Position numbers and translations under genes: made by a program. The notes beneath the pieces were generated by a model. The model was given only the letters and a program-made list of their open reading frames with translations, was not told the DNA's origin and did not search any database. Positions 16,624 to 62,087 of a DNA stretch of 64,000 nucleotides are shown one piece after another (within the stretch, counting starts at the first letter, position 1; the number at the start of each line of letters is the position of its first letter). Source of the stretch: Bacteroidales bacterium (GTDB taxonomy: Bacteria > Bacteroidota > Bacteroidia > Bacteroidales > UBA3663); contig JAFZTS010000002.1 of assembly GCA_017618715.1 (NCBI GenBank), forward strand, positions 71,062 through 135,061, in the 5' to 3' direction.

Positions 16624-18522
16624 ATGAAGAAGTGGCACATTGAAGACTCCGCTGAGCTCTACAATATTCACGGGTGGGGTGTCAGTTATTTTGACATCAA
16701 CGAAGCAGGTCACGTAGTGGTGACCCCCAAGAAGGATGGTGTGCAGGTAGATCTGCGCGAAGTGATGGACGAACTGGCGCTGCGCGATATCCAGGCGCCC
16801 GTTCTCCTGCGTTTTCCTGACATTCTCGACAATCGTATCGAACGCATGTCACAATGCTTCCAGAAGGCTGCCGAAGAGTATGGCTACAAAGGAGAATGTT
16901 TCACCGTCTATCCTATCAAGGTTAACCAGATGCAGCCCGTCGTCACCGAGATGGTGAGCCATGGCAAAAAATTCAACCTGGGTCTTGAAGCCGGTTCAAA
17001 GCCGGAGCTACATGCTGTCATTGCGGCGTGTAGTGACTACGATACCATCATCATCTGCAATGGCTACAAGGACGATTCGTTCGTTGAGCTTGCCTTACTT
17101 GCCCAAAAGATGGGCAAGCGAATCTTTATCGTAGCCGAGAAACTTAACGAGCTCGAAATCATTCACCAGATTGCCAAGCGCCTAAATGTACGTCCTAACA
17201 TCGGCATCCGTATCAAACTAGCCTCATCCGGCTCCGGCAAATGGGAGGAGTCAGGCGGCGATGCCTCGAAGTTCGGACTCACCAGTTCGGAGTTACTGGA
17301 AGCTGTGGAATACTTGGAATCGCACGAATTGAAGGATTGCCTCAAACTCATTCATTTCCACATCGGTTCACAAGTCACCAATATCCGATATGTGAAGACG
17401 GCTATACGCGAAGCCTCGCAATTCTATGTGCAGCTCTGCAAGATGGGCTTTGGCGTACAATTTGTAGATACAGGCGGCGGTTTGGGTGTGGATTACGATG
17501 GCACGCGCAGTGCTTCGAACTGCTCATCGGTTAACTATTCCATCCAAGAGTACATCAACGACATTATGTACCAAATTATGGAGGCTGCCGACAAGAACAA
17601 TCTCCCCCACCCTAATATCATCACCGAATCGGGGCGTTCTTTGTCGGCTCACCATTCCGTACTTGTCATGGAAGTGCTCGAGACCGCTTCACACCCTGAG
17701 ATGCCCGAGGAATGGGTGGTCGATCCTGATGATCACGAGCTGGTCAAGGAACTTTACGAAATCTGGGATTCGCTGACCCAGCGTTCCGCCCTCGAATCAT
17801 GGCACGATGCCCAACAGATCCGCGACGAGGTACTCCAACTCTTCAGTCATGGCATCATTGATTTGAAGACACGTGCACAAATCGAGAAACTCTTCTGGAG
17901 CGTAACACGAGAAATCAACAATCTCATCTCGGGCATGAAGCGCGTCCCCGAGGAACTGCATACCATCCCGAAACTGCTTGCCGACAAGTATTATTGCAAC
18001 TTCTCGCTCTTCCAGTCGCTGCCCGACATGTGGTCGATCGACCAGATCTTCCCCATCATGCCCTTACAGCGCCTCAATGAACGTCCCGACCGGAAGGCCA
18101 CTCTGCAGGATATGACTTGCGACAGTGACGGTAAGGTGCAAAGTTATATTGCCGAGAACCAGATTGTCAATGCCATGCCCATCCATTCGCTCAAGAAGAA
18201 TGAAAAATATTACCTCGGAGTCTTTCTCGTCGGTGCCTATCAAGAAATCCTTGGTGACCTCCACAACCTCTTCGGTGATACCAACGCCGTGCATATCTCG
18301 GTCAACAAGAACGGCTACGAAATTGACCAGACCATCGATGGCGAAACCGTTCAAGACGTGCTTCGCTGGGTGGAATACGACACGAAGAAAATGGTTCGCG
18401 CTCTTGAAACCTGGGTCACGAAATCTGTCAAGACAGGACGTATCTCGCTCGAAGAAGGCAAGGAGTTTCTCAACAACTACCGCAACGGTCTTTACGGCTA
18501 CACCTATCTCGAAAGGGATTGA
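16624..18522 (+). CDS. speA: Biosynthetic arginine decarboxylase
   Basis: 632 aa. W..EDSAELYNI.GWG N-terminus, YPIKVNQ PLP-lysine motif, overall SpeA architecture. Confidence 0.95.
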   Translation: MKKWHIEDSAELYNIHGWGVSYFDINEAGHVVVTPKKDGVQVDLREVMDELALRDIQAPVLLRFPDILDNRIERMSQCFQKAAEEYGYKGECFTVYPIKVNQMQPVVTEMVSHGKKFNLGLEAGSKPELHAVIAACSDYDTIIICNGYKDDSFVELALLAQKMGKRIFIVAEKLNELEIIHQIAKRLNVRPNIGIRIKLASSGSGKWEESGGDASKFGLTSSELLEAVEYLESHELKDCLKLIHFHIGSQVTNIRYVKTAIREASQFYVQLCKMGFGVQFVDTGGGLGVDYDGTRSASNCSSVNYSIQEYINDIMYQIMEAADKNNLPHPNIITESGRSLSAHHSVLVMEVLETASHPEMPEEWVVDPDDHELVKELYEIWDSLTQRSALESWHDAQQIRDEVLQLFSHGIIDLKTRAQIEKLFWSVTREINNLISGMKRVPEELHTIPKLLADKYYCNFSLFQSLPDMWSIDQIFPIMPLQRLNERPDRKATLQDMTCDSDGKVQSYIAENQIVNAMPIHSLKKNEKYYLGVFLVGAYQEILGDLHNLFGDTNAVHISVNKNGYEIDQTIDGETVQDVLRWVEYDTKKMVRALETWVTKSVKTGRISLEEGKEFLNNYRNGLYGYTYLERD

Positions 18523-18554
18523 TAATCTAAAACAACCAGTTTAAAAACGAAAGA

Positions 18555-18588
18555 CAATCGTCATCACGACGACTGCCTTTCCTTTTGC
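18555..18588. terminator. Bidirectional terminator after speA
   Basis: caatcgtc / gacgactg (7 of 8 bp, loop atcac). Followed by cctttccttttg on the + strand and by tctttcgttttt on the minus strand. Confidence 0.45.
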
Positions 18589-18649
18589 CTTAATAATTAA
18601 TTACACATACAATTTGCTATTCACTAATTAAGAGTAATAACCTTTATTT

Positions 18650-18800
18650 GATTTAGAAAAATCGGCTTATTTAGATTTAGAAAAACTTTACAACGATTTA
18701 TAAAATCCTTTAGAATGATTCATAAAGGAAATCTAGAATGATTCATAAAGAATTTATAAAATCTTTTGTTCGATTTAATAAATCTACCATTTCTAAATCT
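18650..18800. promoter_or_regulatory. AT-rich motif array
   Basis: gatttagaaaaa at 18650 and 18674. gatttataaaatc at 18695, aatttataaaatc at 18751, gatttaataaatc at 18772. An inverted copy tttctaaatc at 18790. Two exact 17-mers tagaatgattcataaag at 18711 and 18734, each with a GAATnATTC palindromic core. Confidence 0.6.
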
Positions 18801-18805
18801 CGCTG

Positions 18806-18813
18806 CAAAGATA
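18806..18813 (-). promoter_or_regulatory. Orphan -7 box (TATCTTTG) reading into the motif array
   Basis: caaagata on the + strand. There is no downstream CDS, only the 18650-18800 array and the bidirectional terminator at 18555-18588. Confidence 0.35.
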
Positions 18814-19396
18814 AACGTATTTTTGAAACTGGCCAAAATAATTTGTAACATCATCGTTTTGTTTTGTTTCATCGCATATAAACGCATGTTTTATTTCTCT
18901 TTTTTGCTATTTTCGAGCTAAAAAAAGACGTAACAAAGGCGAAAAACAATGACTCGTCGATGTAATTTTCTATAAATTCAGTCTCCAACGACAAAGAATG
19001 CTCAACGAGATAGGGAACAAGATCAATTTCTTTTCGAAGTCAGTGCTGTGTCATAAAAAATTAATCAAAAAAGTTTTAAATTGTATCATTTCTGTACGAT
19101 TTTCCACCTATTTGCTTGCTGAATCGCCAATATGGCCATTTTTTCGATGTCATACCTCATGACTTCGTACAAGACATTGGCAAGTACGCCATTCAAGTTA
19201 TCCTGAACCATCGGGATTCCCTTTCTTCATGGAATTGCTCCAATATTCATGCATTCGTTCACTGAACATCTCGTCAACCTTGCCTAACGGGCGCCAGCAT
19301 CGCTTGACTGTACAAATAAAAAACCTTGGGCTGTCTCACGACTGTCCAAGGTCACAAAATCATTCACTTATTGTTACCATTTATTGCCTTATGGTG

Positions 19397-19404
19397 CAAA
19401 GATA
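19397..19404 (-). promoter_or_regulatory. Orphan -7 box (TATCTTTG)
   Basis: caaagata on the + strand. About 45 nt downstream on the minus strand is a weak hairpin ccttgg(19324-19329)/ccaagg(19346-19351), followed by a T-run. Confidence 0.3.
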
Positions 19405-19719
19405 TAGGATTTCTAAAAATATACCAAATTTTCTTACAACATTTTTTCCCATTTCATAACGAATCGCCCATTTTTCCCCATGAATATTTTTTGAGATTAC
19501 TGATAATGTCAACAAAAAGACAAAAAAGACATCTTTACCATCTGTTTTTGCTGGATGAAGAGCTAAGACACTATTTGTTATCATTTACCGTTTTCTTTTA
19601 GGCCCATTTTGCCATCAAGCGATGTTGGAATTGGATACCATGCATGACAATCTAGCCATTTAGAGCAACTTAATAGAAGAAAAACGAACAAAGAACACAG
19701 ACATTTCAAAAATACTACA

Positions 19720-19727
19720 TATCTTTG
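19720..19727 (+). promoter_or_regulatory. -7 box TATCTTTG for the aminotransferase-LicC-LicD operon
   Basis: Exact TAnnTTTG 55 nt upstream of the ATG at 19782. Confidence 0.5.
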
Positions 19728-19781
19728 TAAAACATTTACATAAAATCCCCATCCAGAAACAACCTTTCGTTAGAAGATTAT

Positions 19782-20819
19782 ATGAATTTCTTAGATCGCA
19801 ATGAGTTTAACTTCACGCCTTCACAGAAGGTGATTGATGCCGTAAAAAACTTCGACCCCAAGGACCTCTGCTTCTATACCCGTATCTACGACCAAGGCAA
19901 GAAGAGCGTCGTTTCAGTCCGCCTGAGTGAAATCTATGGCGTACCCGAGCCACAGGTGCTGTTAGGCTATGGAGGCGAGGATATCCTGAAGAATGCCGTC
20001 CATTATTATCTCACCAAAGGAGGAAACCGCTCCATCCTTATCCCTGAATTCTCCTGGTGGTATTACAACCGTATCGCCAGCGAGTGTGGCGGCGAGACCC
20101 ACATGTACCCACTACATGAACTTGATGACACCTTTGCTTACGATGTGGACGAGGTAATTGACTATACGTGCCGTGTGCATCCACGCATGCTCCTCATCGC
20201 CTCTCCCAATAATCCCACAGGAAACAGCCTTACCCCCGATGAGATCACGCGAATCATGGAGAATATTCCCTCCGATACCATGGTACTCATCGACGAGGCA
20301 TACGCGTCGTTTATCTCCGCCGACACCCATTATATTGCACCGTTGGTCGAGAAACATAGCAACCTCATCATCTCTCGTACACTCTCGAAGTTCTATGGGC
20401 TCCCTGGCCTTCGTATGGGCTTCGGTTTCATGGGCAAGGGCCATGAAGGCTTCCTCAACTATGCCAACAAATATCTGGGATACAACCGTTTCTCGGAAGC
20501 TGTAGCCCTTGCTGCCTTGGAGAGCGATGACCATTATCGCGACGTGGCCAATCAGATGCAGTGGGACCGCGACCTCTTTAAGCAGGAACTTGGCGACCTC
20601 CCAGGTTTCAAGGTGTATAAGTCGGTGGCCAACTTCATACTCATCAAATATCCCATCGAGATCAAGGAGCCACTGATGGAAGCTTTGAAGATACAGGACT
20701 ACAAAATCAAGTTCATGACCGACAAGGGCCTCGAATCGTGTCTGCGTATCACACTGGGCCGCCCCGAACAGATACAAGTGGTTGTCGATACTATCAAACG
20801 TATAGCACTGGCACCCTGA
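19782..20819 (+). CDS. Class I/II PLP-dependent aminotransferase/decarboxylase, HisC/CobD-like
   Basis: 345 aa. IASPNNPTGN, DEAYASF and the PLP-lysine motif SRTLSKFYGLPGLRMGF. Confidence 0.8.
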   Translation: MNFLDRNEFNFTPSQKVIDAVKNFDPKDLCFYTRIYDQGKKSVVSVRLSEIYGVPEPQVLLGYGGEDILKNAVHYYLTKGGNRSILIPEFSWWYYNRIASECGGETHMYPLHELDDTFAYDVDEVIDYTCRVHPRMLLIASPNNPTGNSLTPDEITRIMENIPSDTMVLIDEAYASFISADTHYIAPLVEKHSNLIISRTLSKFYGLPGLRMGFGFMGKGHEGFLNYANKYLGYNRFSEAVALAALESDDHYRDVANQMQWDRDLFKQELGDLPGFKVYKSVANFILIKYPIEIKEPLMEALKIQDYKIKFMTDKGLESCLRITLGRPEQIQVVVDTIKRIALAP

Positions 20820-20830
20820 TTTCTTCCGCT

Positions 20831-21592
20831 ATGAAAGCCCTAATCCTTGCGGCCGGCACTGCTTCACGGTTGAGGCCGTTGACCAACGACACTCCCAAGT
20901 GCCTGCTACTCGTAGGCCAACGCACTCTCCTCGGACGTTCCATGGACGCGTTGATCCAAAACGGAATACGAGAATTCGTCATTGTCACTGGCTATCTTCA
21001 CCAACAGATAGAGCAGTTTGTCAGCAATCAATATGCTGACCAAATCGAGGTTACCTTCATCCACAATGAAGTTTACGCAACGACCAACAACATCTACTCG
21101 CTTTGGCTGGCACGTCCTTCGGTTGAAGGCGAGGAGATTCTGTTGCTTGACAGTGATCTTCTCTACGACCCGCTGATTATCGCTCGTGTATTGGAGAACG
21201 ATTCCCCCAATGTGCTCACCCTTATCCGTCATCCATTAGGCGAAGAGGAAATGAAAGTGGTGACCGCTGCCAGTCGTAACAATGTCCAAGGGAATGCAGC
21301 CGACTCCATACTCGAGATCAGCAAGACCTGTCGTCCCGACAAAGCTGCCGGTGAAAGTTTGGGCATTGAGAAGATGAGTCCTGCCTACACCCATGCTCTC
21401 TACCGCGAACTCGACACCATGATGAACCAGGAACATCTCGAAAACAAGTTCTACGAACTCGCCTTTGAGCGTCTGATTCCTCAGGGGCATACCTTCAGCG
21501 TGCTCGATGTCACTGACCTCTTCAGCTGCGAACTCGATACAGTCGAAGATTTTGAGAATGCCCAACAAAAGATTCCCGCATCGCTCTATTGA
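20831..21592 (+). CDS. LicC-like nucleotidyltransferase (phospho-alcohol cytidylyltransferase family)
   Basis: Start taken at MKALILAAGTASRLRPLTNDTPKCLL (the G-x-G-T-R-L signature). The ORF-track N-terminal extension overlaps the previous gene. Confidence 0.8.
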   Translation: MKALILAAGTASRLRPLTNDTPKCLLLVGQRTLLGRSMDALIQNGIREFVIVTGYLHQQIEQFVSNQYADQIEVTFIHNEVYATTNNIYSLWLARPSVEGEEILLLDSDLLYDPLIIARVLENDSPNVLTLIRHPLGEEEMKVVTAASRNNVQGNAADSILEISKTCRPDKAAGESLGIEKMSPAYTHALYRELDTMMNQEHLENKFYELAFERLIPQGHTFSVLDVTDLFSCELDTVEDFENAQQKIPASLY

Positions 21593-21593
21593 T

Positions 21594-22415
21594 ATGGCCA
21601 CCTACGACATACGACCCTTGCAACTTCGCATTCTTCGCATTCTTCTCGCCGTCCAACAAGTCTGCAAAGAGCATAATCTGCGCTATTTCATCATTGCCGG
21701 CACTCTCCTTGGTGCAGTCCGGCATAAGGGCTTCATTCCCTGGGATGATGACCTTGATATTGCCATGCCGCGTAGCGATTACGACCTGCTGTGTCAACAT
21801 GCCAAGGAATGGCTGCCCGCACCCTACGAGTTGGTAAGCTTCGAAACCGATCCCGAAAACTATCCACTCCCATTCGCCAAGATACAGGATGCCAGTACCA
21901 CACTCATTGAGCGTATGCATCTAAAATATTTAGGCGGCATATACATTGACATCTTCCCCCTCGACGGCATGCCCAAGAGCGGGTGGCTGCGACGCCTCCA
22001 TTTCATACGCTACGAATGGTACAAGCGTGCCCTCTACCTCGTGCATCGTGACCCCTACAAGCATGGTCATGGGCCATCGAGTTGGGCTCCGCTGCTCTGC
22101 CGAAAATTTTACACAATGCAGGAGATACAGGAAAAACTACGCCAGTTTCAGCGTCGTTGGGATTATGATGCCAGCGATTATGTGGTCGATCATGACGATG
22201 GACTGAAGGGAGTGATGGCGAAATCCATATTGGGCAAACCCACGCCCATTGTATTCGAAGATGTAATGGTCTGGGGTGTTGAACATCCCCATGAATATCT
22301 TTCACAAAAATATGGCGAATATATGGTTATTCCCGATGGAGACCATCAGCGCCAGCACAACTTCCACCTTCTCGACCTCGATCTACCCTATCGAGAGTAT
22401 TCTCAAGGAGAATGA
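21594..22415 (+). CDS. LicD-family phosphotransferase
   Basis: Start at MATYDIRPLQLRIL, 1 nt after the previous stop. LicD signature YFIIAGTLLGAVRHKGFIPWDDDLDIAM plus IDIFPLD. Confidence 0.85.
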   Translation: MATYDIRPLQLRILRILLAVQQVCKEHNLRYFIIAGTLLGAVRHKGFIPWDDDLDIAMPRSDYDLLCQHAKEWLPAPYELVSFETDPENYPLPFAKIQDASTTLIERMHLKYLGGIYIDIFPLDGMPKSGWLRRLHFIRYEWYKRALYLVHRDPYKHGHGPSSWAPLLCRKFYTMQEIQEKLRQFQRRWDYDASDYVVDHDDGLKGVMAKSILGKPTPIVFEDVMVWGVEHPHEYLSQKYGEYMVIPDGDHQRQHNFHLLDLDLPYREYSQGE

Positions 22416-22472
22416 TATATCCTATCGATGTTTTCAAAAACCGTTTTTATATACATTTAATACCAAAACTTT

Positions 22473-22847
22473 ATGAGCAACGTGAACGAAATTTACAAAT
22501 GCAAGGAATGCGGCCTTATGGTAGAAGTTGTTATCGCAGGTGCTTGCGCTCCCGAATGCTGTGGCAAACCCATGCAGCTACTCAAGGAGAACACTACCGA
22601 CGGTGCCAAGGAAAAACATGTCCCCGTGGTTGAGAAGACCAGCGATGGATATCGTGTCAGAGTAGGTTCGGTGGATCATCCGATGACCGAGGCTCACTAT
22701 ATTCAGTGGATTGAACTCGTCACCGAAAATGGTGTGCTTCGCCAACACCTCACTCCTCAAGACCAGCCTGTTGCCGAATTCAAGACCGATGCCAAGGTAG
22801 TCTATGCACGCGAATTCTGCAATCTTCACGGACTTTGGAAATCCTGA
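22473..22847 (+). CDS. dfx: Desulfoferrodoxin (2Fe superoxide reductase)
   Basis: 124 aa. N-terminal desulforedoxin site CKECG...CC. EKHVPV and FCNLHGLW ligand motifs of the neelaredoxin domain. Confidence 0.9.
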   Translation: MSNVNEIYKCKECGLMVEVVIAGACAPECCGKPMQLLKENTTDGAKEKHVPVVEKTSDGYRVRVGSVDHPMTEAHYIQWIELVTENGVLRQHLTPQDQPVAEFKTDAKVVYAREFCNLHGLWKS

Positions 22848-22923
22848 TTTCTCACGAATCTTCATCTTTCCTATCATCAAGCCCGAATAATACGGGTTAT
22901 GGTTTGAACCATAACTGAACCAA

Positions 22924-22956
22924 ATGAAGCCTGGACAAGCAATGTCCAGGCTTCAT
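22924..22956. terminator. Bidirectional hairpin between dfx and the GH9-like gene
   Basis: Perfect 14-bp stem atgaagcctggaca / tgtccaggcttcat with a 5-nt loop. Confidence 0.6.
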
Positions 22957-22977
22957 CATTATCTTCGACCTCTCCAA

Positions 22978-25329
22978 TTAACGAATACTATAGAGATATG
23001 CGAGGAGCATCATCTTGCCACGCATGGTCTCACGCGGTGTAAATTCACCATTGACCCACATATACCGCTGATTGAAGTAGGATTCCTGACGAGGCCAGTT
23101 TTCCGTCCACTCGGGATAGCAACGATTGAGTAGGATACGTGCATCACCGCCATTCCCAGGCGACCATACCTCGGTGCCATTGAACGGGGTTTGACCAGGA
23201 TGGCTCTCTGGCGTTCCATCGTTGCGTCCAGTAGTATATACATCGGTAATATGACGTTGGCCAAGACCTGTCATCTCGACAATGTTGCCTGGATTGCGAC
23301 CCAATGCCCACCCTGCCTCAAAATACAGGGCACGCTCAAGCTGCTGGCGACGCGGCTTGGAGTTGGCGATATAGTGAGCCAAGACAACGAGGTGAAGGTT
23401 CTGTGAGGTCTGCCAGCGTGCATCGTTGGCGGCACGACGCGAAGGACGTTGATCAACAAAGTTGACATTGTAGGCATCGGCATGATAGTTGACGCTGGAC
23501 TTCATATTGGCATAAAGTTCGGGATAATGGCGTTCACGCGGACAACAGAGATAAGCAGCTGTAGCATAGTACTGGAAGTAGCCTACCTCGCCTGCACCGA
23601 AGACGTTGGTGACATTGGCCTCGAAGAATCCCTGACGTCCCTTGTTGAAAAGTGGAGTTTCACCTGTCTTGATCATGCTCTCGGAGGCCATGATGTCCTC
23701 CCATTCGCGTTCTCCCGTGACATTGTAGAGGAAGGCAGCAGCCATCTGGCGGAAATCACGTCCACGCATACTGATACTGCCGATGTCCTGCTTATCGTCG
23801 AGTTGGGAATTCTCCTGTTTTGAAGCATATCGGAACGCCTTGATGGCTTCTTGGGTGTAATAGCTGCAAAGAGAGTCCTTACCGTGGATACGTAGCGCCT
23901 CAGCGGTGATTGCACAGTTGGCGGCATTGGCCCATGCAGCCATTGTAGTACAGCCAGCCTGGAACATGATGGTCCATTCAGAGGATGGGTTGGTGACACC
24001 CTGTGAGTAACCTTCGCCATCACGTATGCTCAGGAAGAAGTCCACCTCGTTGCGTGCCTCGTCAATAAGGTCTGGCAGACCATTGCCACTCTCTCGAATG
24101 CCAAGGTTATCTTCTGAAAGACGTCCTTCAGAGAGGATATATGGTAACAGCTGGTCGTAGATATTGGAGACATGCGCAAGGTGGCGGTCCCAGTCGAAGG
24201 CATCGGAATGTCCTCCCTTGACCTCTACGTTCACTGGATTGCCTGGCAAGCGATGCTGCCAGAAGATGGAGGTGAGTGCCGGCTTGAAGTGGGGTTCGTC
24301 CCACACATCAGTATGCAGTGCCCTCCAGTCGGGATCCCATGGCTGGAAGTCAGTCTTATAGACGGTGAAGCCTTTCGGATCGACTTCGGGGATGAACTGT
24401 GGCTGACGAGGTACGGGACTAACGTGCTCGGGATCGATGGGTTCGCCCAAACGCATGTAGTAATAACCGCGCAACGAATAGCGGTAGGGCTGGTAATAGA
24501 CATCCTTACTGATATCGAAGTCCATACTGCAACCCACATCCTCAACGACAAGGCGATAGCGTCCGGGGGTAGTTGTATTGAAATCAACGTTCCAGACATC
24601 AGTGCCGACGAGGTTCTTCCGACCGGCCTCGTTGGATGAAGCTGTGGCAGGCAGCCAAAATCGAACAGTTCCCACCTTCTGCTTCTTCCCTGTGCGGACA
24701 TTGTAGAGATAGACCTTCTTGCCCTCGAAAGACTTGTAGTCACGCTGACCACCGTCGCCAAGCCACATATAGAGATCAGCCGCCTTGACAGCTTCTTCAG
24801 GACTGTAGCCCAAGATATTGACGTGAATAGCCTCGGACTGTGATGTCCAAATATCGTATTTCACCGTAGCTGTAGTCTGGTCAGCACCCAGACCTTCAGG
24901 GAAATTGACCTGATAAGTGCAGCCTTGGCGCATCGACTGGGGCAGTTGGAGGAAAATCCAGTGATCCAGTTCCGACGTGAGCGTATGGTCGGTGTTCATT
25001 GGCTTGCTCTTACGATAGACGACCCGCAGCTGATGAATCGGGAAGGTCTTGTCATCGGGTGAAGAAACTTGCCATGAAGCCGCCTGAGCAGCAATTGCGG
25101 CATCGAGACGAGGACCAAAGACGAGCAGTGTGTCATCGCCCTCGGCAAAGCTATGGCCAAGATAGGCGCTGGGACCCGTGGCATCATCACGGTAACGAAC
25201 TTCTCCATCGCGGAAATGGAGCATCAGATAATCCTTGTCAACTACCTGAATGCCGATGAACCGACTGGCCAAGGCGATGGATGGCAATAGGAAAGAAAGA
25301 AAAGAAATAAGAAATAACGTCTTTTTCAT
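22978..25329 (-). CDS. GH9-like (alpha/alpha)6-barrel glycoside hydrolase with N-terminal Ig-like domain (family assignment tentative)
   Basis: Start at MKKTLFLISF (signal peptide). GGHSDAFDWDRH aligns by eye with the GH9 GGWxDAGDxxK motif. GNGLPDLIDEARNEVDFFL aligns with the GH9 NGIPDILDEARWELEFLL motif. Confidence 0.5.
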   Translation of the reverse strand: MKKTLFLISFLSFLLPSIALASRFIGIQVVDKDYLMLHFRDGEVRYRDDATGPSAYLGHSFAEGDDTLLVFGPRLDAAIAAQAASWQVSSPDDKTFPIHQLRVVYRKSKPMNTDHTLTSELDHWIFLQLPQSMRQGCTYQVNFPEGLGADQTTATVKYDIWTSQSEAIHVNILGYSPEEAVKAADLYMWLGDGGQRDYKSFEGKKVYLYNVRTGKKQKVGTVRFWLPATASSNEAGRKNLVGTDVWNVDFNTTTPGRYRLVVEDVGCSMDFDISKDVYYQPYRYSLRGYYYMRLGEPIDPEHVSPVPRQPQFIPEVDPKGFTVYKTDFQPWDPDWRALHTDVWDEPHFKPALTSIFWQHRLPGNPVNVEVKGGHSDAFDWDRHLAHVSNIYDQLLPYILSEGRLSEDNLGIRESGNGLPDLIDEARNEVDFFLSIRDGEGYSQGVTNPSSEWTIMFQAGCTTMAAWANAANCAITAEALRIHGKDSLCSYYTQEAIKAFRYASKQENSQLDDKQDIGSISMRGRDFRQMAAAFLYNVTGEREWEDIMASESMIKTGETPLFNKGRQGFFEANVTNVFGAGEVGYFQYYATAAYLCCPRERHYPELYANMKSSVNYHADAYNVNFVDQRPSRRAANDARWQTSQNLHLVVLAHYIANSKPRRQQLERALYFEAGWALGRNPGNIVEMTGLGQRHITDVYTTGRNDGTPESHPGQTPFNGTEVWSPGNGGDARILLNRCYPEWTENWPRQESYFNQRYMWVNGEFTPRETMRGKMMLLAYLYSIR

Positions 25330-26372: not shown

Positions 26373-27272
26373 TTATTGATAAAGTGAAGCCATCTGGACA
26401 GTGATGTCATGCATCTTGTTACGTAACGACTGAGGGGCAAGGACCTCTATGCTGGCACCGAATTCCAAAAACCTGTTGATCAAGTCGGGAGTAACAACGA
26501 GGTCATATTCGAAGATACTGTAATCAGAGTGTGTCTCAACCTCATGTTGCGATGAATGAAGTGGAAGTGTCCTAAAATATCCGCGCCAGAACAAATCGAC
26601 CTTGAGGAGAATCGTTTCAACAATAGGACTGACACCTGTATATACACCAAAATAATGAGCGAAATGCTCCTTAGGCTTAAAAAAATCAGGAATCTGAAAA
26701 TCCACTTCCTCAAGGATACGTAGTTGCTGCATACGATCGAGTGCAAAGACCTGCAAGTGTGAACTGTGATCTTTTCTGGCCAACAGATACCAGCGTTGCT
26801 GGGATAGTTTCACACAGTAAGGTTCAATGAAACAGGTATAAGGCTCACTATCATAGAACTTCTTGTAATCGAGTTCCATAGCCTTTCCCTTTGACATCGC
26901 TTCGATGATGGTGGTCAAGAAGAATTGGCCGGAAGGAATCTCCTCGAACATAATCCTTTCACGAAGGTTACTCCTTTCGGACACCAACTGGTTGACTGAG
27001 TAGGAAGACAGCAGCCATTCTGTAGCTTTCAAGCTTTCATCGCCCGCTATGAAGTAACGATACTGATCCTTTAAATCACATTCTATCGAAACCCCAAGCA
27101 CATCGAGCGCTGAACTGATGGCTCGATTCAACTGGTTGCGGGTCAACTCCTCTCCTCCACTCAATCCCTCGTTGTGTATCCATAGCTTATTCAATTCCTC
27201 CCTGTTGAGCTTTTTATAGTTCAGCAGCGTATTTACAAGCCACATTCCATGACGAAAACGCAGATTTTCCAT
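26373..27272 (-). CDS. WYL-domain transcriptional regulator
   Basis: 299 aa. N-terminal HTH-like region. The central region YCVKLSQQRWYLLARKD contains the WYL motif. C-terminal WCX-like region. Confidence 0.75.
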   Translation of the reverse strand: MENLRFRHGMWLVNTLLNYKKLNREELNKLWIHNEGLSGGEELTRNQLNRAISSALDVLGVSIECDLKDQYRYFIAGDESLKATEWLLSSYSVNQLVSERSNLRERIMFEEIPSGQFFLTTIIEAMSKGKAMELDYKKFYDSEPYTCFIEPYCVKLSQQRWYLLARKDHSSHLQVFALDRMQQLRILEEVDFQIPDFFKPKEHFAHYFGVYTGVSPIVETILLKVDLFWRGYFRTLPLHSSQHEVETHSDYSIFEYDLVVTPDLINRFLEFGASIEVLAPQSLRNKMHDITVQMASLYQ

Positions 27273-54046: not shown

Positions 54047-54889
54047 TTATATGTTGTTTTTGATATAGTCCTTGACGCTTTGCGCCAAACCCTTCTTGAA
54101 CCAAAGGATGCGCATCACTCCATCGAATTGCTCGAGATGGAGGTCGGCATAACGCCCATCCTGTTTCATCGCATCGAAAGCCTTTTTGAGCTTGTTGAGA
54201 GCCGAAAGACGGGTTTTGTAGCGATGCTTGTCTCGTCCGGTGCTCAACGACTCATCCCGAACGCAATAGACATAAAGCGGTTCATCAACGCAGGCGATAC
54301 GCCGGGCCAAAAGAAGACAGCGCGTGAGGAAATTGGTATCCTCACTATTCCTTTCGTCGGGAAATCTCAGTTCGTTCTCATCGAGGAATTGCCGCCGAAA
54401 AAGGAAACATACCGAAAAAGTGACGAAGTGGAGCAAGAAATGGCGTTTCGCCTCGAAAGTGAACGCGCCAGCTTCGACGACAGGATTGCGAAAAACGCGA
54501 CCGTCATTTGCTCCTCCGCGATACTTGAGCTGACAGAAGGCGAGGTCGGTCTGCGATGTTTCTGCCGCATGAAGCAACTTCTCGAGGAAAGTGGGTTTCC
54601 ACTCGTCGTCACTGTCGATGAATGCTACGTATTCACCCTTTGCCGCCTCAAGGCCAACGTTGCGAGCCACACCAGGGCCACTGTTCCGAGGAGTTTCAAG
54701 AAAACGGAACTTCTCCATCACTCCTTCCTGTTCGACAAAGGCATGGGCCAGATCCATGCTCCCATCCCCACCATGGTCATCTACCAATAGTACCTCAAAG
54801 TCCTGGCAGGTCTGTGCCATGAGGCTTTGAAGGCATCCCTTGATATAGGGAGCACAACGATAGATGGGGGTAACAATACTAACCTTCAT
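54047..54889 (-). CDS. Glycosyltransferase family 2
   Basis: VSIVTPIYRCAPYIKGCLQSL, VDDHGGDGS, FIDSDDEW (DxD). Confidence 0.85.
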   Translation of the reverse strand: MKVSIVTPIYRCAPYIKGCLQSLMAQTCQDFEVLLVDDHGGDGSMDLAHAFVEQEGVMEKFRFLETPRNSGPGVARNVGLEAAKGEYVAFIDSDDEWKPTFLEKLLHAAETSQTDLAFCQLKYRGGANDGRVFRNPVVEAGAFTFEAKRHFLLHFVTFSVCFLFRRQFLDENELRFPDERNSEDTNFLTRCLLLARRIACVDEPLYVYCVRDESLSTGRDKHRYKTRLSALNKLKKAFDAMKQDGRYADLHLEQFDGVMRILWFKKGLAQSVKDYIKNNI

Positions 54890-54892
54890 CTT

Positions 54893-55681
54893 TCATTTGC
54901 CTAATTTGCGTCGAATCTTATTGGGCCAGCCAGCCACGCGTTGAGGCACCTTGATGGTCCAACGACATAGTTCATCGGCCTTGAAACCAATACGCTGCAC
55001 GATGGAAAACGATGGGCGGTGGAGTCCACGCAGAGCATACGCTTCATCGATGACAGCATCGATTCGCAGACGATGGTTGACATCCTTCCGATCGTTGCCT
55101 TCAAAGAGATGGGTCAGGATACCTGGATTGTATTGACGCGCGAACCACGTGTGAAGACAAAAGTCGAGGCGGGTTGTGATGCCATCGGTGTGTCGTTCGT
55201 TGTCGAGATACAAGGTCTTGCCAGGGAAAGTTCGCACCATCCAGTGAAAGAAGTTGTAGTAAGGCTCGATGCCCTTGTAACTATCTTGCTTGAGTTCGGG
55301 GATGAGACGATAAGCGTTCCAGGCCTTGCGAATATCATGCAGGTTGAAGACATTAAAAAACGGATTGGTCACCGTAGGATCGCCCTTACGTGGCACACCC
55401 TTGCCTGCATCCGAGCACCCGATATTGACCCACCCTTCGGTCTGAGCCTTTTTGGCCAACGCCAACACGGCATCGAGATCGGTGATGAAGCAGTCCTCAT
55501 CGACATTGATGGCTATGTCGCAGGTTTCGTCGGCAAGCATCGTATAGAAGTACCCGTCGGCTGTCTGGTCGGTGAGACGAATGCACGGGTAGCCGGCCTG
55601 CTCATACAACCCTCGGCTGAGCAGGTAAAGCTCCTTGTTGAAGCTACGGCAATAAAACTTGATGCGAAGCTTGGGGGTCAT
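54893..55681 (-). CDS. Hypothetical protein in glycan locus (possible GT-A-like; DxD-like VDEDC)
   Basis: 262-aa ORF packed tightly between two GT2 genes. No family recognised. Confidence 0.5.
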   Translation of the reverse strand: MTPKLRIKFYCRSFNKELYLLSRGLYEQAGYPCIRLTDQTADGYFYTMLADETCDIAINVDEDCFITDLDAVLALAKKAQTEGWVNIGCSDAGKGVPRKGDPTVTNPFFNVFNLHDIRKAWNAYRLIPELKQDSYKGIEPYYNFFHWMVRTFPGKTLYLDNERHTDGITTRLDFCLHTWFARQYNPGILTHLFEGNDRKDVNHRLRIDAVIDEAYALRGLHRPSFSIVQRIGFKADELCRWTIKVPQRVAGWPNKIRRKLGK

Positions 55682-55698
55682 ATCTACTTTGAAGGATA

Positions 55699-56793: not shown

Positions 56794-56798
56794 ATAAA

Positions 56799-57620
56799 CT
56801 AATAGTTTACCTTACCTACTTGTTCATCAACTAATACACAGACCGCGTGGGTACGACGACGACTCTTTTCCGGTATTTTCATATAATCACCGTAAATATC
56901 TCGCAAACATTGGTCTGGATTTGCCGGTCCCATAACCTTATGACCTTCATATTCGATTTCTTTCAAAGGAAAGATTGCATCCTTTGAGGAATATAGGCCA
57001 TAAGAGTATCTTTCCGGAGTGAAAAAATACTTGTCACTTTTTCCAAATAGATAGAAGAAGTTGAAGATTCCCTTATGAAACAGATAGGAGATTGGATAGA
57101 GGAAATAACAAACTATGGTACGAAACGTAATCAAGCAGGGATAATGATAGAATCCATAGGACAATGATATTCGTTTAGACAAATAACGGAAAAGTGACTT
57201 GGGCATTTTAGGACAATTAATACTCTTAAAAACATCCACAAATATGCCTTTGTTATAGTCCAATTTGAAACTGTCAAAATCATTGATATAGAGCGAGCGT
57301 CGATCACGTATTTTAATCAATCCTCCACCCATGCCGGAACAGGGTTCGTTTTTCTCGGTTTGAACATACAACCAATCCGGAAGTGATTTGTTGCAAACCT
57401 CAATGAACTTGTCAAAATCATCTTCAAAAACGCAAATATCGGTATCGTCATCCCAAGGAATAAAACCTCCATGACGCACCGCACCTAATAAGGTTCCATA
57501 TTCTATCCAATAACGAATACCATTATTGCGACAAACCTTATCCACTTCAAGCAAAATCTCTGTCATTCTCAGCTGAAGTGCTCGGAGGTTCCCTGTTGCC
57601 TGTGGAATACTTTCTTGCAT
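56799..57620 (-). CDS. LicD-family phosphotransferase (second paralog)
   Basis: Start at MQESIPQ (57620), 4 nt after the SDR stop. YWIEYGTLLGAVRHGGFIPWDDDTDICV signature. The 392-aa ORF-track version overlaps the SDR gene. Confidence 0.85.
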   Translation of the reverse strand: MQESIPQATGNLRALQLRMTEILLEVDKVCRNNGIRYWIEYGTLLGAVRHGGFIPWDDDTDICVFEDDFDKFIEVCNKSLPDWLYVQTEKNEPCSGMGGGLIKIRDRRSLYINDFDSFKLDYNKGIFVDVFKSINCPKMPKSLFRYLSKRISLSYGFYHYPCLITFRTIVCYFLYPISYLFHKGIFNFFYLFGKSDKYFFTPERYSYGLYSSKDAIFPLKEIEYEGHKVMGPANPDQCLRDIYGDYMKIPEKSRRRTHAVCVLVDEQVGKVNY

Positions 57621-57624
57621 ACCA

Positions 57625-58356: not shown

Positions 58357-58369
58357 TTCTCAAAAATGA

Positions 58370-58747
58370 TTAATAGTGATGAAACATTCGCTCAGTCATC
58401 TGCCACTTTTCATCGCTCTTGGCATTCGGGTCACAGCCCTGATAAGCTGCAACGAAAGCTTCCCACTCGGCCTGTCGAGGCAGCGTGGCGAGTTTGGCCA
58501 TAGCCTTCTCCCAGTCGAAGTCGGCAACAGTTTCGACAATCATCACCAGATGATTATCCTTGCGGTAAATCTCCATGTCAAGAATACCGACCTCATTCTG
58601 TCCCTTCTGTATCTCAGGCCAGAACACTTCCTGGGAATGACAGTGACAATACTTGCGGATAAGTTCGGGGTCATTGGTAATGTCAAGAATCTGCACATAA
58701 CGCTTGGTAGGCTGGTCAAATTTCTTGACGGGTGTTCCTTCATTCAT
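58370..58747 (-). CDS. L-rhamnose mutarotase (RhaM)-family protein
   Basis: 125 aa. KRYVQILDI..DPELIRKY...H..VWPEI......GILDMEIYR..NHLVMIVE pattern of the RhaM/DUF718 fold. Confidence 0.7.
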   Translation of the reverse strand: MNEGTPVKKFDQPTKRYVQILDITNDPELIRKYCHCHSQEVFWPEIQKGQNEVGILDMEIYRKDNHLVMIVETVADFDWEKAMAKLATLPRQAEWEAFVAAYQGCDPNAKSDEKWQMTERMFHHY

Positions 58748-58771
58748 AATATTATATTTTTTGGAAATACA

Positions 58772-59728: not shown

Positions 59729-59771
59729 TGACTATGGATGTAAAAAAGATTATCTAAGCTCCTCAGAATAC

Positions 59772-62026: not shown

Positions 62027-62051
62027 TTGTAACTTTTTTTGATAATAGATG

Positions 62052-62087
62052 CTATAGTGACTATAAATACTATAGTGACTATATCTA
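62052..62087. repeat. 9-bp-period CTATAG array (4 units) between the rfbD stop and the wzx start
   Basis: ctatagtga ctataaata ctatagtga ctatatcta. The last unit contains the rfbD stop codon (62085-62087). Confidence 0.75.

What the first reader, a model, noticed from the sequence alone, without database searches (positions are those of the whole stretch)
19782..22415. HisC/CobD-like PLP enzyme + LicC-like nucleotidyltransferase + LicD: putative pathway installing an amino-alcohol phosphate on a glycan
Three tightly spaced genes (gaps of 11 and 1 nt) combine two kinds of enzyme. The first is a class I/II PLP enzyme of the histidinol-phosphate aminotransferase / threonine-phosphate decarboxylase type. 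The other two make up the LicC + LicD pair that, in the phosphocholine pathway, activates a phospho-alcohol as its CDP derivative and transfers it to a glycan. There is no choline kinase or transporter (LicA/LicB) and no PEP mutase. HisC/CobD-family enzymes act on phosphorylated amino-alcohol or keto substrates: histidinol-P, L-Thr-P to aminopropanol-P, and, in Campylobacter capsule work, DHAP to serinol-P or Ser-P to ethanolamine-P. The simplest hypothesis is de novo synthesis of an amino-alcohol phosphate head group, followed by CTP activation and LicD-mediated transfer to LPS, capsule or a glycoprotein. I am not aware of this trio being characterised in Bacteroidota.
Basis: partly seen in the sequence, partly recalled or inferred. 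Interest (0 to 1): 0.55.

Follow-up and report, generated by a model that had tools for sequence, protein, structure and literature searches.

The report
Self-supplied CDP-amino-alcohol cassette feeding LicD
A rumen-type Prevotella carries an uncharacterised gene pair (a histidine-pathway-like vitamin-B6 enzyme and a LicC-like activating enzyme) that most likely makes its own CDP-activated amino-alcohol phosphate, which a LicD enzyme then puts on a surface sugar chain; relatives plug the same pair into lipid or teichoic-acid-type transferases.

Summary
Three same-strand genes lie at 19782-20819 (PLP enzyme), 20831-21592 (LicC-like nucleotidyltransferase) and 21594-22415 (LicD), with gaps of 11 and 1 nt.

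- **The PLP enzyme is not the housekeeping HisC.** The genome has a true hisC elsewhere. This protein belongs to a separate, well-supported clade outside both HisC and CobD.
- **The conserved unit is the pair, not the trio.** Every clade member with readable context down to about 40% identity has the LicC-like gene beside it. That is 14/14 in the genus and all loci of the wider Bacteroidales, Desulfobacterales and Ignavibacteria-type samples.
- **The third gene is swapped**, even between near-identical PLP genes. It can be LicD, a TagF-like phosphotransferase, or a CDP-alcohol phosphatidyltransferase with lipid genes, in some loci next to serine palmitoyltransferase. All three families use CDP-alcohol donors.
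- **The nucleotidyltransferase** keeps the two acidic residues that contact the amine in LicC and PntC.
- **The PLP enzyme** keeps HisC-type residues, including an acidic residue that known or presumed decarboxylases of this fold lack.

Best reading: DHAP is transaminated to serinol phosphate, activated to a CDP-amino-alcohol, and transferred by LicD to a glycan. Phosphoserine to CDP-ethanolamine is the main rival. Nothing here is biochemically shown.

I found no paper on this cassette. The scan has noted the same cassette before on other genomes.

The parts
19720..19727 (+). Candidate Bacteroidota-type -7 promoter box, TATCTTTG (TAnnTTTG), 55 nt before the first ATG
   Evidence: Read directly from the sequence. 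The motif definition comes from general knowledge of Bacteroides promoters. It was not tested. The sigma-70 scan of the region was at chance level.
19782..20819 (+). HisC-paralogue fold-type-I PLP enzyme (345 aa). Predicted phospho-keto to phospho-amino-alcohol aminotransferase, with DHAP to serinol phosphate the most likely reaction.
   Evidence: PF00155. hisC model 206 bits, below the 276.55 cut-off. Only 26% identical to the genome's true HisC. AF2 model pLDDT 95.4, with HisC structures as top matches. Sits in its own clade with SH-aLRT 100. Signature residues are listed.
20831..21592 (+). LicC/PntC-like nucleotidyltransferase (253 aa). Predicted CTP:phospho-amino-alcohol cytidylyltransferase.
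   Evidence: PF00483/PF12804. The family profile matches LicC 1jyk at 107.6 bits and PntC 6pd1 at 99.4 bits over the full length. D107 and E209 align with the amine-contacting residues of LicC and PntC (PMC6697681).
21594..22415 (+). LicD-family phospho-alcohol transferase (273 aa). Predicted to move the phospho-amino-alcohol from the CDP donor to a glycan or glycolipid.
   Evidence: PF04991, 153.8 bits. The GxLLGAxRHxxxIPWDDDLD motif aligns with the catalytic region of FKRP 6kaj. The weak best NCBIfam hit is the Mycoplasma Mf1 cholinephosphotransferase.
22924..22956 (+). Strong hairpin (14 pairs) after the desulfoferrodoxin gene. It is the first terminator-like site downstream of the trio, so the trio may be co-transcribed with dfx (22473-22847).
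   Evidence: No terminator-like site lies between 22415 and 22473.
56799..57620 (-). Second LicD paralogue (31% identical to the first) inside a polysaccharide locus, with no nucleotidyltransferase of its own nearby. It is a possible second user of the same CDP donor.
   Evidence: The only close LicC-like gene found in the assembly is the one in the trio. Use of the same donor is an inference.

Best explanation
The locus is a kinase-free, Lic/Kennedy-type head-group pathway whose conserved core is two genes.

Step 1 (inferred). The HisC-paralogue PLP enzyme makes a 2-substituted phosphoethanolamine from a central metabolite. The most likely reaction is transamination of dihydroxyacetone phosphate with glutamate to serinol phosphate. 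This is the HisC reaction with a hydroxyl in place of the imidazole.

Step 2 (inferred from family and residues). The LicC/PntC-like enzyme condenses that product with CTP to give a CDP-amino-alcohol.

Step 3 (inferred from family). LicD transfers the phospho-amino-alcohol to a hydroxyl of a surface glycan or glycolipid. The probable acceptor is LPS core, O-antigen or capsule, giving a zwitterionic decoration.

In relatives, the same two-gene donor cassette is wired to a TagF-like phosphotransferase. In others it is wired to a CDP-alcohol phosphatidyltransferase with lipid and sphingolipid genes.

My odds:
- General scheme (de novo phospho-amino-alcohol, then CDP activation, then transfer): about 0.7.
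- Aminotransferase chemistry: about 0.6.
- Serinol phosphate specifically: about 0.4.
- The acceptor being LPS or CPS in this organism: about 0.5.
For: **Not a redundant HisC**
- A true hisC (343 bits, over cut-off) lies on another contig.
- This protein is 26% identical to it.
- It lacks the HisC N-terminal arm that carries Tyr20.

**Phylogeny**
- The NTase-linked proteins form one clade (SH-aLRT 100, stem 1.08) apart from HisC and CobD-like proteins.
- All 19 rows with known context carry a LicC-like neighbour. None of about 55 HisC-like rows does.

**Linkage surveys**
- 11 of 301 genomes of the order have the PLP gene, and the LicC-like gene lies next to it or within three genes at all 11.
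- 14/14 PLP-carrying genomes of the genus have the pair.
- Named MAGs of Prevotella, Bacteroidales and Desulfobacterales carry it too.

**Outlet swapping**
- Near-identical PLP genes sit with LicD in one genome and with TagF-like or CDP-OH_P_transf in another: L043 against L026, and L039 against L037.
- All three outlet families use CDP-alcohol donors (established knowledge of LicD/FKRP, TagF and PF01066).

**Lipid contexts**
- Some loci have serine palmitoyltransferase (NF047600, 681 bits, over cut-off) two genes upstream.
- Others carry LPG_synthase_TM and CarboxypepD_reg/DUF5686 genes. The same accessory genes accompany the proposed CDP-inositol lipid cluster of Heaver et al. (PMC9246714).

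**NTase pocket**
- Invariant D107 and E209 align with LicC D105/D192 and PntC E104/E196. Those residues contact the head-group nitrogen.

**PLP chemistry**
- Retained: Lys203, Asp171, Tyr174, Arg211, Asn144, Arg322 (= E. coli R335), basic K310 (= R322), and the HisC N-E motif.
- Position 66 (= E. coli D85) is Glu in 98% of the family and D/N in HisC.
- The same position is T/V/A in the CobD clade, T in the Ser-P decarboxylase SMUL_1544, and A/S in fused NTase-PLP proteins of FrbH-like architecture.
- The family profile scores 214 bits on HisC structures, 158 on SMUL_1544 and 105-112 on CobD.

**Precedent**
- HisC/CobD-fold enzymes make serinol-P from DHAP (Cj1437) and ethanolamine-P from Ser-P (Cj1436) in C. 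jejuni (PMC11800397).

**No alternative supply found**
- No choline kinase and no PEP mutase were found in the assembly.
Against: - There is no biochemical or expression evidence of any kind.
- The aminotransferase-versus-decarboxylase call rests on a handful of aligned residues and on similarity scores. The catalytic residues of the two chemistries are the same.
- I could not obtain Cj1436, Cj1437 or FrbH sequences for a direct comparison.
- In a quick tree, the PLP domains of fused NTase-PLP proteins (the architecture of FrbH, whose PLP domain is a decarboxylase to my knowledge) fall on the same side of the long branch as this family. Those rows are long branches.
- Phosphoethanolamine is a very common bacterial decoration. 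I found no report of a phosphoserinol decoration, CDP-serinol or a serinol phospholipid, so prior odds favour ethanolamine.
- The trio here is not inside a glycan locus. Its neighbours are speA, a DPP-IV-like peptidase, desulfoferrodoxin and a GH9-like gene, so the acceptor is unknown.
- The genome is only 78% complete, so 'not found' is not 'absent'.
- One deep clade member (Saccharibacteria, 34% identity) has no NTase nearby.
Confidence: 0.6

Rival explanations
1. Phosphoserine route to CDP-ethanolamine. The PLP enzyme is a CobD/Cj1436/SMUL_1544-type decarboxylase that turns L-serine O-phosphate (an intermediate of serine synthesis) into phosphoethanolamine. The NTase then makes CDP-ethanolamine and LicD adds phosphoethanolamine to a glycan. 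In relatives the outlet would give PE or ceramide phosphoethanolamine.
For: - Decarboxylases of this fold exist and act on Ser-P: Cj1436 (PMC11800397) and SMUL_1544, PDB 6oux, which is the fifth-best PDB hit at E 1.3e-22.
- Phosphoethanolamine decorations and ceramide phosphoethanolamine are well known in bacteria, including Bacteroidales (my knowledge).
- Linkage to serine palmitoyltransferase in L021, L044 and L050 fits a sphingolipid head group.
- I found no paper that reports a phosphoserinol decoration or lipid.
- Ser-P needs no kinase, which matches the kinase-less cassette.
Against: - The family has an invariant-like Glu at position 66, where CobD-type proteins, SMUL_1544 and the fused FrbH-like proteins have T/V/A/S. 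It also lacks the Trp that those decarboxylases share at position 232.
- It keeps the HisC N-E motif, which the CobD clade has lost.
- The family profile scores higher on HisC structures than on any decarboxylase.
- The cassette is rare in the order (11/301), whereas ceramide phosphoethanolamine is common there.
- A TagF-like outlet fits a donor that keeps a free hydroxyl, like CDP-glycerol, better than it fits CDP-ethanolamine. This last point is my inference.
Confidence: 0.2
2. FrbH-like order of steps. The nucleotidyltransferase acts first on an amino-acid phosphate such as Ser-P to give a CDP-linked amino acid. The PLP enzyme then works on the CDP-linked substrate, by decarboxylation or transamination, to give the final CDP-amino-alcohol.
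For: - FrbH cytidylylates L-2-amino-4-phosphonobutyrate (PMC6697681). To my knowledge its PLP domain then decarboxylates the CMP-conjugate.
- Fused NTase-PLP proteins are common among the distant hits, and their PLP domains group with this family in a quick tree.
- The family lacks the HisC N-terminal arm that closes over the substrate phosphate. It has extra conserved basic residues (R34, K70, R236) that could accommodate a diphosphate. This is inference.
Against: - The acidic amine pocket of the NTase (D107, E209) resembles that of enzymes acting on free phospho- or phosphono-amines.
- The fused proteins differ from this family at the signature positions.
- Their placement rests on long branches in a quick tree.
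- For the aminotransferase version, the NTase would have to accept DHAP, which has no amine.
Confidence: 0.1
3. The head group is not an amino alcohol made by gene 1. The NTase would activate a sugar-1-phosphate, inositol phosphate, glycerol or ribitol phosphate, or scavenged phosphocholine. The PLP gene would be an unrelated amino-acid aminotransferase that merely sits upstream.
For: - NCBIfam's best partial hits for the NTase are sugar-1-phosphate and inositol-phosphate nucleotidyltransferases, covering the N-terminal half only.
- LicD-family enzymes also transfer ribitol or glycerol phosphate (FKRP).
Against: - PLP-NTase adjacency is universal in the clade across several phyla and survives repeated swaps of the third gene.
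- Full-length best matches of the NTase profile are LicC and PntC, with the amine-contacting residues kept.
- No choline kinase was found.
- The genome already has a HisC.
Confidence: 0.06

Closest known systems
Lic1 phosphocholine pathway (LicA, LicB, LicC, LicD) of Streptococcus pneumoniae and Haemophilus influenzae
   Same: A LicC-type cytidylyltransferase makes a CDP-activated amino-alcohol phosphate, and a LicD-family enzyme puts it on a surface glycan. The NTase profile matches LicC over its full length, and LicD is a clear PF04991 member.
   Different: There is no transporter and no kinase. The phospho-base is made inside the cell by a PLP enzyme. The head group is probably a primary amine, not choline. 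The donor pair is also used with non-LicD outlets in relatives.
Cj1437 (DHAP to (S)-serinol phosphate) and Cj1436 (L-Ser-P to ethanolamine phosphate) of the Campylobacter jejuni HS:2 capsule locus
   Same: These are HisC/CobD-fold PLP enzymes that make small amino-alcohol phosphates from central metabolites for a surface polysaccharide (PMC11800397). This is the chemistry proposed here.
   Different: In C. jejuni the products are joined as amides to glucuronate by an ATP-grasp ligase and then dephosphorylated. There is no CTP activation and no phosphodiester. Sequence relatedness to this family could not be tested because the sequences were not obtainable with the tools.
Pnt pathway: PntC (CMP-2-aminoethylphosphonate synthase), including the PntC-aminotransferase fusion Tde1415 (PDB 6pd1/6pd2)
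   Same: A LicC-like NTase is genetically coupled to a PLP enzyme that supplies a self-made amino head group, often with LicD-like transferases nearby (PMC6697681). The second-best structural relative of the NTase is PntC, and E209 matches PntC E196.
   Different: Pnt needs PEP mutase, and none was found here. Its PLP enzyme is class V, not HisC-like. Its product is a phosphonate.
Proposed CDP-inositol ('alternative') inositol-lipid cluster of Bacteroides vulgatus and Prevotella (Heaver et al. 2022)
   Same: It follows Kennedy-like logic in Bacteroidota: a head-group synthase, an NTP transferase and a CDP-alcohol phosphatidyltransferase, accompanied by BT_1521-like (LPG_synthase_TM) and BT_1527-like (CarboxypepD_reg) genes. 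The lipid-type versions of this cassette have the same layout.
   Different: The head-group supplier there is myo-inositol-phosphate synthase, whereas here it is a HisC-like PLP enzyme. The two NTases are only about 26% identical over about 110 residues where both occur in one locus. That pathway is itself unconfirmed.
FrbH (FR-900098 pathway): fused cytidylyltransferase and PLP decarboxylase
   Same: It combines a nucleotidyltransferase and a class I/II PLP domain acting on one small amino-phosph(on)ate. Fused relatives group with this family in a quick tree.
   Different: FrbH is a single polypeptide that acts on a phosphonate amino acid, with the NTase step first. The fused proteins lack this family's signature residues E66, Y231-L232-G233 and K310.
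Histidinol-phosphate aminotransferase HisC
   Same: It has the same fold and PLP-binding residues. HisC structures are the best structural and profile matches. The proposed reaction is HisC chemistry on a smaller substrate.
   Different: It scores below the hisC model cut-off, sits in a separate clade, lacks the N-terminal arm, has a remodelled side-chain pocket (W92, Y94, Y231-L232-G233, R34, R236), and is never found in a his operon context.

Membership tests
HisC, histidinol-phosphate aminotransferase (TIGR01141) | Score at or above the curated equivalog cut-off (276.55 bits) | tested here: not met
   206.2 bits. The genome's other copy on contig C43 scores 342.7 bits.
HisC, histidinol-phosphate aminotransferase (TIGR01141) | Groups with bona fide HisC in a tree | tested here: not met
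   It falls in a separate clade with SH-aLRT 100. E. coli HisC and the genome's own HisC lie on the other side of the branch.
HisC, histidinol-phosphate aminotransferase (TIGR01141) | Fold-type-I PLP site: Schiff-base Lys, Asp to the pyridine N, Tyr/Asn to O3', Arg to the PLP phosphate, and C-terminal Arg for the substrate phosphate or carboxylate | tested here: met
   K203, D171, Y174, N144, R211 and R322 align with E. coli K214, D184, Y187, N157, R222 and R335. The residue roles come from my knowledge of the E. coli structures.
HisC, histidinol-phosphate aminotransferase (TIGR01141) | N-terminal arm with Tyr20, and side-chain pocket residues Tyr110 and Tyr243 | tested here: not met
   The protein starts after the arm. 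Y110 is replaced by W92, M112 by Y94, and P-Y-P/N by Y231-L232-G233.
CobD, L-threonine-O-3-phosphate decarboxylase (TIGR01140) | Score at or above the cut-off (290.55 bits), and the clade's diagnostic residues | tested here: not met
   113.9 bits. At positions 5, 8, 66, 94, 202, 232 and 326 the Bacteroidales CobD-like clade has S, V/I, T/V/A, E, T, W and Q. This family has D, E, E, Y, S, L and G.
LicC/PntC-type CTP:phospho-base cytidylyltransferase | N-terminal GXG(T/S)R-X4-8-PK signature | tested here: met
   The motif A-G9-T-A-S-R13...P22-K23 is present. R13 and K23 are invariant in the family, and the second Gly is Ala. The motif is as given in PMC6697681.
LicC/PntC-type CTP:phospho-base cytidylyltransferase | Two acidic residues that contact the head-group nitrogen (LicC D105/D192; PntC E104/E196), and the metal-binding acidic residues | tested here: met
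   Invariant D107, D109, E209, E234 and D236. D107 aligns with PntC E104, and E209 with PntC E196 and LicC D192, in the profile alignments. The residue roles are from PMC6697681.
LicC/PntC-type CTP:phospho-base cytidylyltransferase | CTP-dependent activation of a phospho-amino-alcohol | not testable with these tools
   This needs an enzyme assay.
LicD family (PF04991) | Pfam score above the gathering threshold, and the conserved Asp-rich catalytic motif | tested here: met
   153.8 bits against a threshold of 22.6. The motif IPWDDDLD aligns with FKRP IPWDYDVD.
Lic1 phosphocholine system | Choline kinase LicA (and the permease LicB) supplying phosphocholine | tested here: not met
   No PF01633 match in the assembly, which is 78% complete. 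None is present in the locus. LicB was not searched.
Pnt phosphonate-tailoring system | PEP mutase | tested here: not met
   No PF13714 match in the assembly.

The most novel reading that the evidence does not exclude
The cassette makes CDP-serinol, a nucleotide-activated head group for which I found no report. Phosphoserinol would then be a new zwitterionic decoration of Prevotella surface glycans. In relatives that couple the pair to CDP-alcohol phosphatidyltransferases and serine palmitoyltransferase, it would be the head group of an undescribed class of phospholipids or sphingophospholipids. By mass these lie 0.98 Da below the phosphoglycerol forms and could have been misassigned.
Probability: 0.35. 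Interest if true: 0.75.

Novelty: new variant of a known kind. Interest (0 to 1): 0.6.

Why it matters
Zwitterionic phospho-base decorations such as phosphocholine, phosphoethanolamine and aminoethylphosphonate shape how host immunity and antimicrobial peptides see bacterial surfaces. All well-studied routes need either an imported base plus a kinase, a donor phospholipid, or PEP mutase.

Here a compact two-gene module would make the activated head group from a glycolytic or serine-pathway intermediate alone. It behaves as a portable donor cassette that evolution plugs into glycan, teichoic-acid-type or lipid transferases.

It occurs in many rumen and gut Prevotella and other Bacteroidales, which are dominant members of the gut microbiota, and their surface chemistry is poorly known. 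If the product is serinol-based, it adds a new nucleotide-activated building block and possibly a new lipid class.

The hypothesis is directly testable with three soluble proteins and cheap substrates.

Tried and rejected
- **Rfam.** A scan of 18400-23100 found nothing.
- **Promoter scan.** The sigma-70 scan was at chance level.
- **Structure search.** The excellent AF2 model gave HisC, CobD and SMUL_1544 all at TM 0.76-0.85. The fold alone does not separate aminotransferase from decarboxylase.
- **Phosphonate route.** Rejected, because no PEP mutase was found.
- **Choline salvage.** Rejected, because no choline kinase was found.
- **'Just a second HisC'.** Rejected.
- **Reference sequences.** I could not obtain Cj1436, Cj1437 or FrbH for a direct tree. 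The Medicago HISN6 and SMUL_1544 structure papers are not in the held library, so several residue roles rest on my memory of the E. coli HisC structures.
- **Synteny with desulfoferrodoxin.** It holds only in the six closest species, so dfx is a neighbour and not a part of the system.
- **Deep clade member.** A Saccharibacteria relative at 34% identity has no NTase nearby. The 'always linked' statement therefore applies to the subclade down to about 40% identity, not to the whole deep clade.
- **Fusion P0160.** Its N-terminal domain is not an NTase. It looks like a hexapeptide acyltransferase.
- **Complex prediction.** No job was sent, because no claim here depends on the proteins binding each other.


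Full report
**What is there**

The + strand carries three genes: 19782-20819 (345 aa), 20831-21592 (253 aa) and 21594-22415 (273 aa). The spacers are 11 nt and 1 nt. The ORF lister offers longer upstream starts for genes 2 and 3. Homologues from other genomes, however, align from the first residue of the short forms.

- Gene 1 is a class I/II PLP enzyme (PF00155). Its best curated model is hisC (TIGR01141) at 206 bits, below the 276.55-bit cut-off. CobD (TIGR01140) gives 114 bits.
- Gene 2 is a nucleotidyltransferase (PF00483/PF12804). Its best solved relatives are S. pneumoniae LicC (1jyk) and the PntC domain of Treponema Tde1415 (6pd1).
- Gene 3 is a clear LicD (PF04991, 153.8 bits). Its IPWDDDLD motif aligns with the catalytic region of FKRP.

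**Setting**

The trio does not sit in a glycan locus.
- Upstream lie biosynthetic arginine decarboxylase speA (16624-18522), a second PLP decarboxylase, a DPP-IV-like peptidase, and then a 1.26-kb AT-rich spacer.
- Downstream lie desulfoferrodoxin (22473-22847) and, convergent to it, a GH9-like gene.
- A TAnnTTTG box (TATCTTTG, 19720-19727) lies 55 nt before the first ATG.
- The first terminator-like hairpin is at 22924-22956, after dfx.

The genome is a 3.0-Mb MAG, 78% complete. Close homologues carry the names Prevotella, Prevotellaceae and Bacteroidaceae MAGs, mostly from rumen and gut.

**The PLP enzyme is not HisC**

- The assembly has a true hisC on another contig (343 bits, over cut-off). 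The trio's protein is only 26% identical to it.
- An alignment with E. coli HisC (locus L032) shows that the PLP machinery is kept. K203, D171, Y174, N144, R211, R322 and Y32 match E. coli K214, D184, Y187, N157, R222, R335 and Y55.
- The N-terminal arm that carries Tyr20 is missing, and the side-chain pocket is remodelled. Y110 becomes W92, M112 becomes Y94, and P-Y-P/N becomes Y231-L232-G233. There are new conserved basic residues R34 and R236, and R322 becomes K310.
- The AlphaFold model is excellent (pLDDT 95.4). Its best structural matches are HisC structures, with CobD and SMUL_1544 close behind. The fold alone does not decide the chemistry.

**A conserved two-gene core with interchangeable outlets**

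This is the main result.
- In a sample of 301 genomes of the order, 11 carry a homologue at E <= 1e-60 (43-67% identity). The LicC-like gene is adjacent or within three genes at all 11: 9 showed it within the first 1.5-kb flanks, and the other two (L016, L018) once wider flanks (L022, L024) were read.
- In the window's genus, 15 of 39 genomes have the PLP gene, and all 14 others carry the LicC-like gene next to it.
- Named loci from the genome collection extend this to rumen Prevotella MAGs, other Bacteroidales, an unclassified Bacteroidetes MAG and a Desulfobacterales MAG. An Ignavibacteriae contig ends inside the PLP gene, so its context is unread.
- In a maximum-likelihood tree of 105 HisC-like proteins, the NTase-linked proteins form one clade (SH-aLRT 100, stem length 1.08). 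That clade lies outside both the HisC group (the genome's own and E. coli's) and a CobD-like group. All 19 rows with known context have the NTase, and none of about 55 HisC-like rows does.

The third gene varies.
- LicD: this window, L027, L028, L038, L039, L043 and most congeners.
- A TagF-like CDP-glycerol-type phosphotransferase (PF04464): L025, L026, L045, L140-L142.
- A CDP-alcohol phosphatidyltransferase (PF01066): L019-L023, L034, L036, L037, L044, L046-L048.

The swap occurs between almost identical PLP genes. L043 with LicD and L026 with TagF-like are separated by a path of 0.07. L039 and L037 are sisters. LicD/FKRP, TagF and PF01066 enzymes all take CDP-alcohols as donors (established knowledge). 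The simplest reading is that the pair makes a CDP-alcohol that any of them can use.

**Where the product goes in relatives**

The PF01066 versions are lipid loci.
- In L021, L044 and L050 the order is: serine palmitoyltransferase (NF047600, 681 bits, over cut-off), two paralogous unknown proteins, PLP, CDP-alcohol phosphatidyltransferase, NTase, and a LysE-like membrane protein.
- In rumen Prevotella L036 and L037 the pair sits with a CDP-alcohol phosphatidyltransferase, an LPG_synthase_TM protein and a CarboxypepD_reg/DUF5686 protein.
- These are the same accessory genes (BT_1521- and BT_1527-like) that Heaver et al. describe around their proposed, Kennedy-like CDP-inositol lipid cluster of B. 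vulgatus and Prevotella (PMC9246714).
- L021 even has such a second NTase/PF01066/LPG_synthase_TM set beside the first. The two NTases are barely related, at 26% over 109 residues.

One LicD version (L027) sits between a WaaL-like O-antigen ligase and a GT4 plus a Kdo/WaaP-type kinase, which is an LPS-core context.

In the window itself the acceptor is not indicated by neighbours. A polysaccharide locus lies at 54-64 kb on the minus strand, with GT2s, an SDR, KdsD-like, KdsA, Wzx, RmlD and RmlC genes. It contains a second LicD (56799-57620, 31% identical to the first) with no NTase of its own. The trio's NTase is the only close LicC-like gene found in the assembly.

**What the nucleotidyltransferase says**

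A profile of 17 family members matches LicC (107.6 bits) and PntC (99.4 bits) over the full length. Inositol-phosphate and sugar-phosphate enzymes match more weakly or only in the N-terminal half. Rice et al. report that the head-group nitrogen is contacted by E104 and E196 in PntC, and that the equivalent LicC positions are D105 and D192 (PMC6697681). In the profile alignments, the family's invariant D107 aligns with PntC E104, and its invariant E209 aligns with PntC E196 and LicC D192. The aromatic positions before E209 (F207, Y208) match LicC Y190 and W191. This supports a substrate with an amine close to the phosphate, not a sugar or polyol phosphate.

**Aminotransferase or decarboxylase?**

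Both chemistries are known in this fold, and both give suitable products.
- Cj1437 converts DHAP to (S)-serinol-P, and Cj1436 converts L-Ser-P to ethanolamine-P (PMC11800397).
- CobD and SMUL_1544 are decarboxylases.

The catalytic residues are the same, so I looked for residues that separate the groups.
- The family keeps the HisC N-E motif (N7-E8), Ser before the Schiff-base Lys, and Gly326. The Bacteroidales CobD-like clade has N-V/I, Thr and Gln at these positions.
- Position 66 is the most telling. It corresponds to E. coli D85, which to my memory contacts the substrate side chain.

| Group | Residue at position 66 |
|---|---|
| HisC | D/N |
| This family | E (98%) |
| CobD-like clade | T/V/A |
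| SMUL_1544 | T |
| Three fused NTase-PLP proteins of FrbH-like architecture | A/S |

- The decarboxylases CobD and SMUL_1544 also share a Trp at position 232, where this family has Leu.
- An acidic side chain next to the substrate is hard to reconcile with a substrate carboxylate that has to leave as CO2. It fits a hydroxyl-bearing substrate.
- The family profile scores 214 bits on HisC structures, 158 on SMUL_1544 and 105-112 on CobD.

I therefore favour transamination (about 0.6). Within that, I favour DHAP to serinol-P, because DHAP is imidazole-acetol phosphate with the imidazole replaced by OH, and the pocket is filled with bulkier, polar aromatic residues.

Caveats:
- In a quick tree the fused proteins' PLP domains fall on this family's side of the long branch. 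Their branches are long.
- Phosphoethanolamine is the commoner decoration in nature.
- I could not fetch Cj1436, Cj1437 or FrbH for direct comparison.
- An FrbH-like order of steps (NTase first, PLP enzyme on the CDP-linked substrate) is not excluded (PMC6697681, for FrbH's cytidylyl transfer).

**Comparison with what is known**

The system works like the Lic1 and Kennedy pathways: a CDP-activated base, then phospho-transfer. It is not a Lic1 system, because no kinase was found, and the permease LicB was not searched for. It is not a Pnt system, because there is no PEP mutase. Its PLP enzyme fails the membership tests for both HisC and CobD.

Searches of the held literature found no paper on a LicC/LicD pair fed by a HisC-like enzyme, and none on CDP-serinol or serinol phospholipids.

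The scan itself has seen this cassette before on other genomes.
- First-reader notes e1-2301006, e1-2328806 and e1-4832708 describe the same cassette.
- A follow-up (e1-3160057) reached the same general reading on a rumen Prevotella.
- My work agrees with that and adds several points: the residue-level argument on chemistry, the NTase amine-pocket test, the within-genus survey, the link to the Heaver-type lipid cluster and to serine palmitoyltransferase, and the relation to the fused FrbH-like proteins.

**Verdict**

This is a real, conserved and biochemically uncharacterised donor cassette. I class it as a new variant of a known kind of pathway. Interest is moderate to high, because it is widespread in important gut and rumen bacteria, it may define a new activated head group, and it can be tested with simple enzymology.

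Noticed in passing
window 18523-19781: A 1.26-kb AT-rich, ORF-poor spacer lies between speA and the trio. It carries short direct repeats, for example TAGAATGATTCATAAAG twice at 18711-18756. The same spacer ranges from about 0.77 kb to about 2.8 kb in the closest species. There is no Rfam match.
   Followed up: partly
window 54047-63592 (minus strand): A polysaccharide locus: two GT2 genes, an unknown 261-aa protein, a second LicD (56799-57620) next to an SDR (57625-58356), a KdsD-like SIS+CBS protein, KdsA, a Wzx-type flippase, RmlD and RmlC. This LicD has no nucleotidyltransferase of its own nearby.
   Followed up: partly
G000:C81:98926-99846 and downstream (locus L147): Elsewhere in the same genome there is a CDP-alcohol phosphatidyltransferase (31-37% identical to the PLP-linked ones) followed by an LPG_synthase_TM protein. 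It is preceded by a 485-aa protein with a faint ATP-grasp (inositol-trisphosphate kinase-like) match. No NTase lies within 1.5 kb. It could be a second consumer of the CDP donor or an ordinary CDP-DAG enzyme.
   Followed up: partly
L021 4998-7276; L044 2458-4873; L050 3647-5924: Two paralogous proteins of 373 and 384 aa (about 43% identical) with no significant Pfam match and no NCBIfam match always sit between serine palmitoyltransferase and the PLP-CDP-OH_PT-NTase-LysE block. They are candidate unknown lipid-pathway enzymes.
   Followed up: no
L022 9951-11036; L047 7862-8947: A 362-aa protein with no family match is inserted between the CDP-alcohol phosphatidyltransferase and the NTase in two Bacteroidales genomes.
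   Followed up: no
L026 7570-8312: A PIN-domain protein (143 aa) and a 104-aa partner, which look like a toxin-antitoxin pair, are inserted between the PLP gene and the NTase gene in one genome. Its PLP gene is nearly identical to that of an uninterrupted LicD-type locus (L043).
   Followed up: no
L028 10283-11215: A tyrosine recombinase (phage integrase family) lies directly downstream of, and convergent with, the LicD gene in one relative. This hints that the cassette can travel with mobile DNA.
   Followed up: no
protein P0160 (595 aa, metagenomic): A member of this PLP family with all signature residues is fused to an N-terminal hexapeptide-repeat acyltransferase-like domain, not an NTase. 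This suggests N-acylation of the amino-alcohol in some lineages.
   Followed up: partly
window 22415-22956: No terminator-like site lies between LicD and the desulfoferrodoxin gene. The first strong hairpin (22924-22956) follows dfx and faces the convergent GH9-like gene. The trio-dfx-GH9 order is conserved only in the six closest species.
   Followed up: partly
window 26373-27272 (minus strand): A WYL + WCX domain protein (a putative transcription regulator of the kind often tied to defence or DNA-damage systems) sits between a GH43 gene and a cyclophilin-type isomerase.
   Followed up: no
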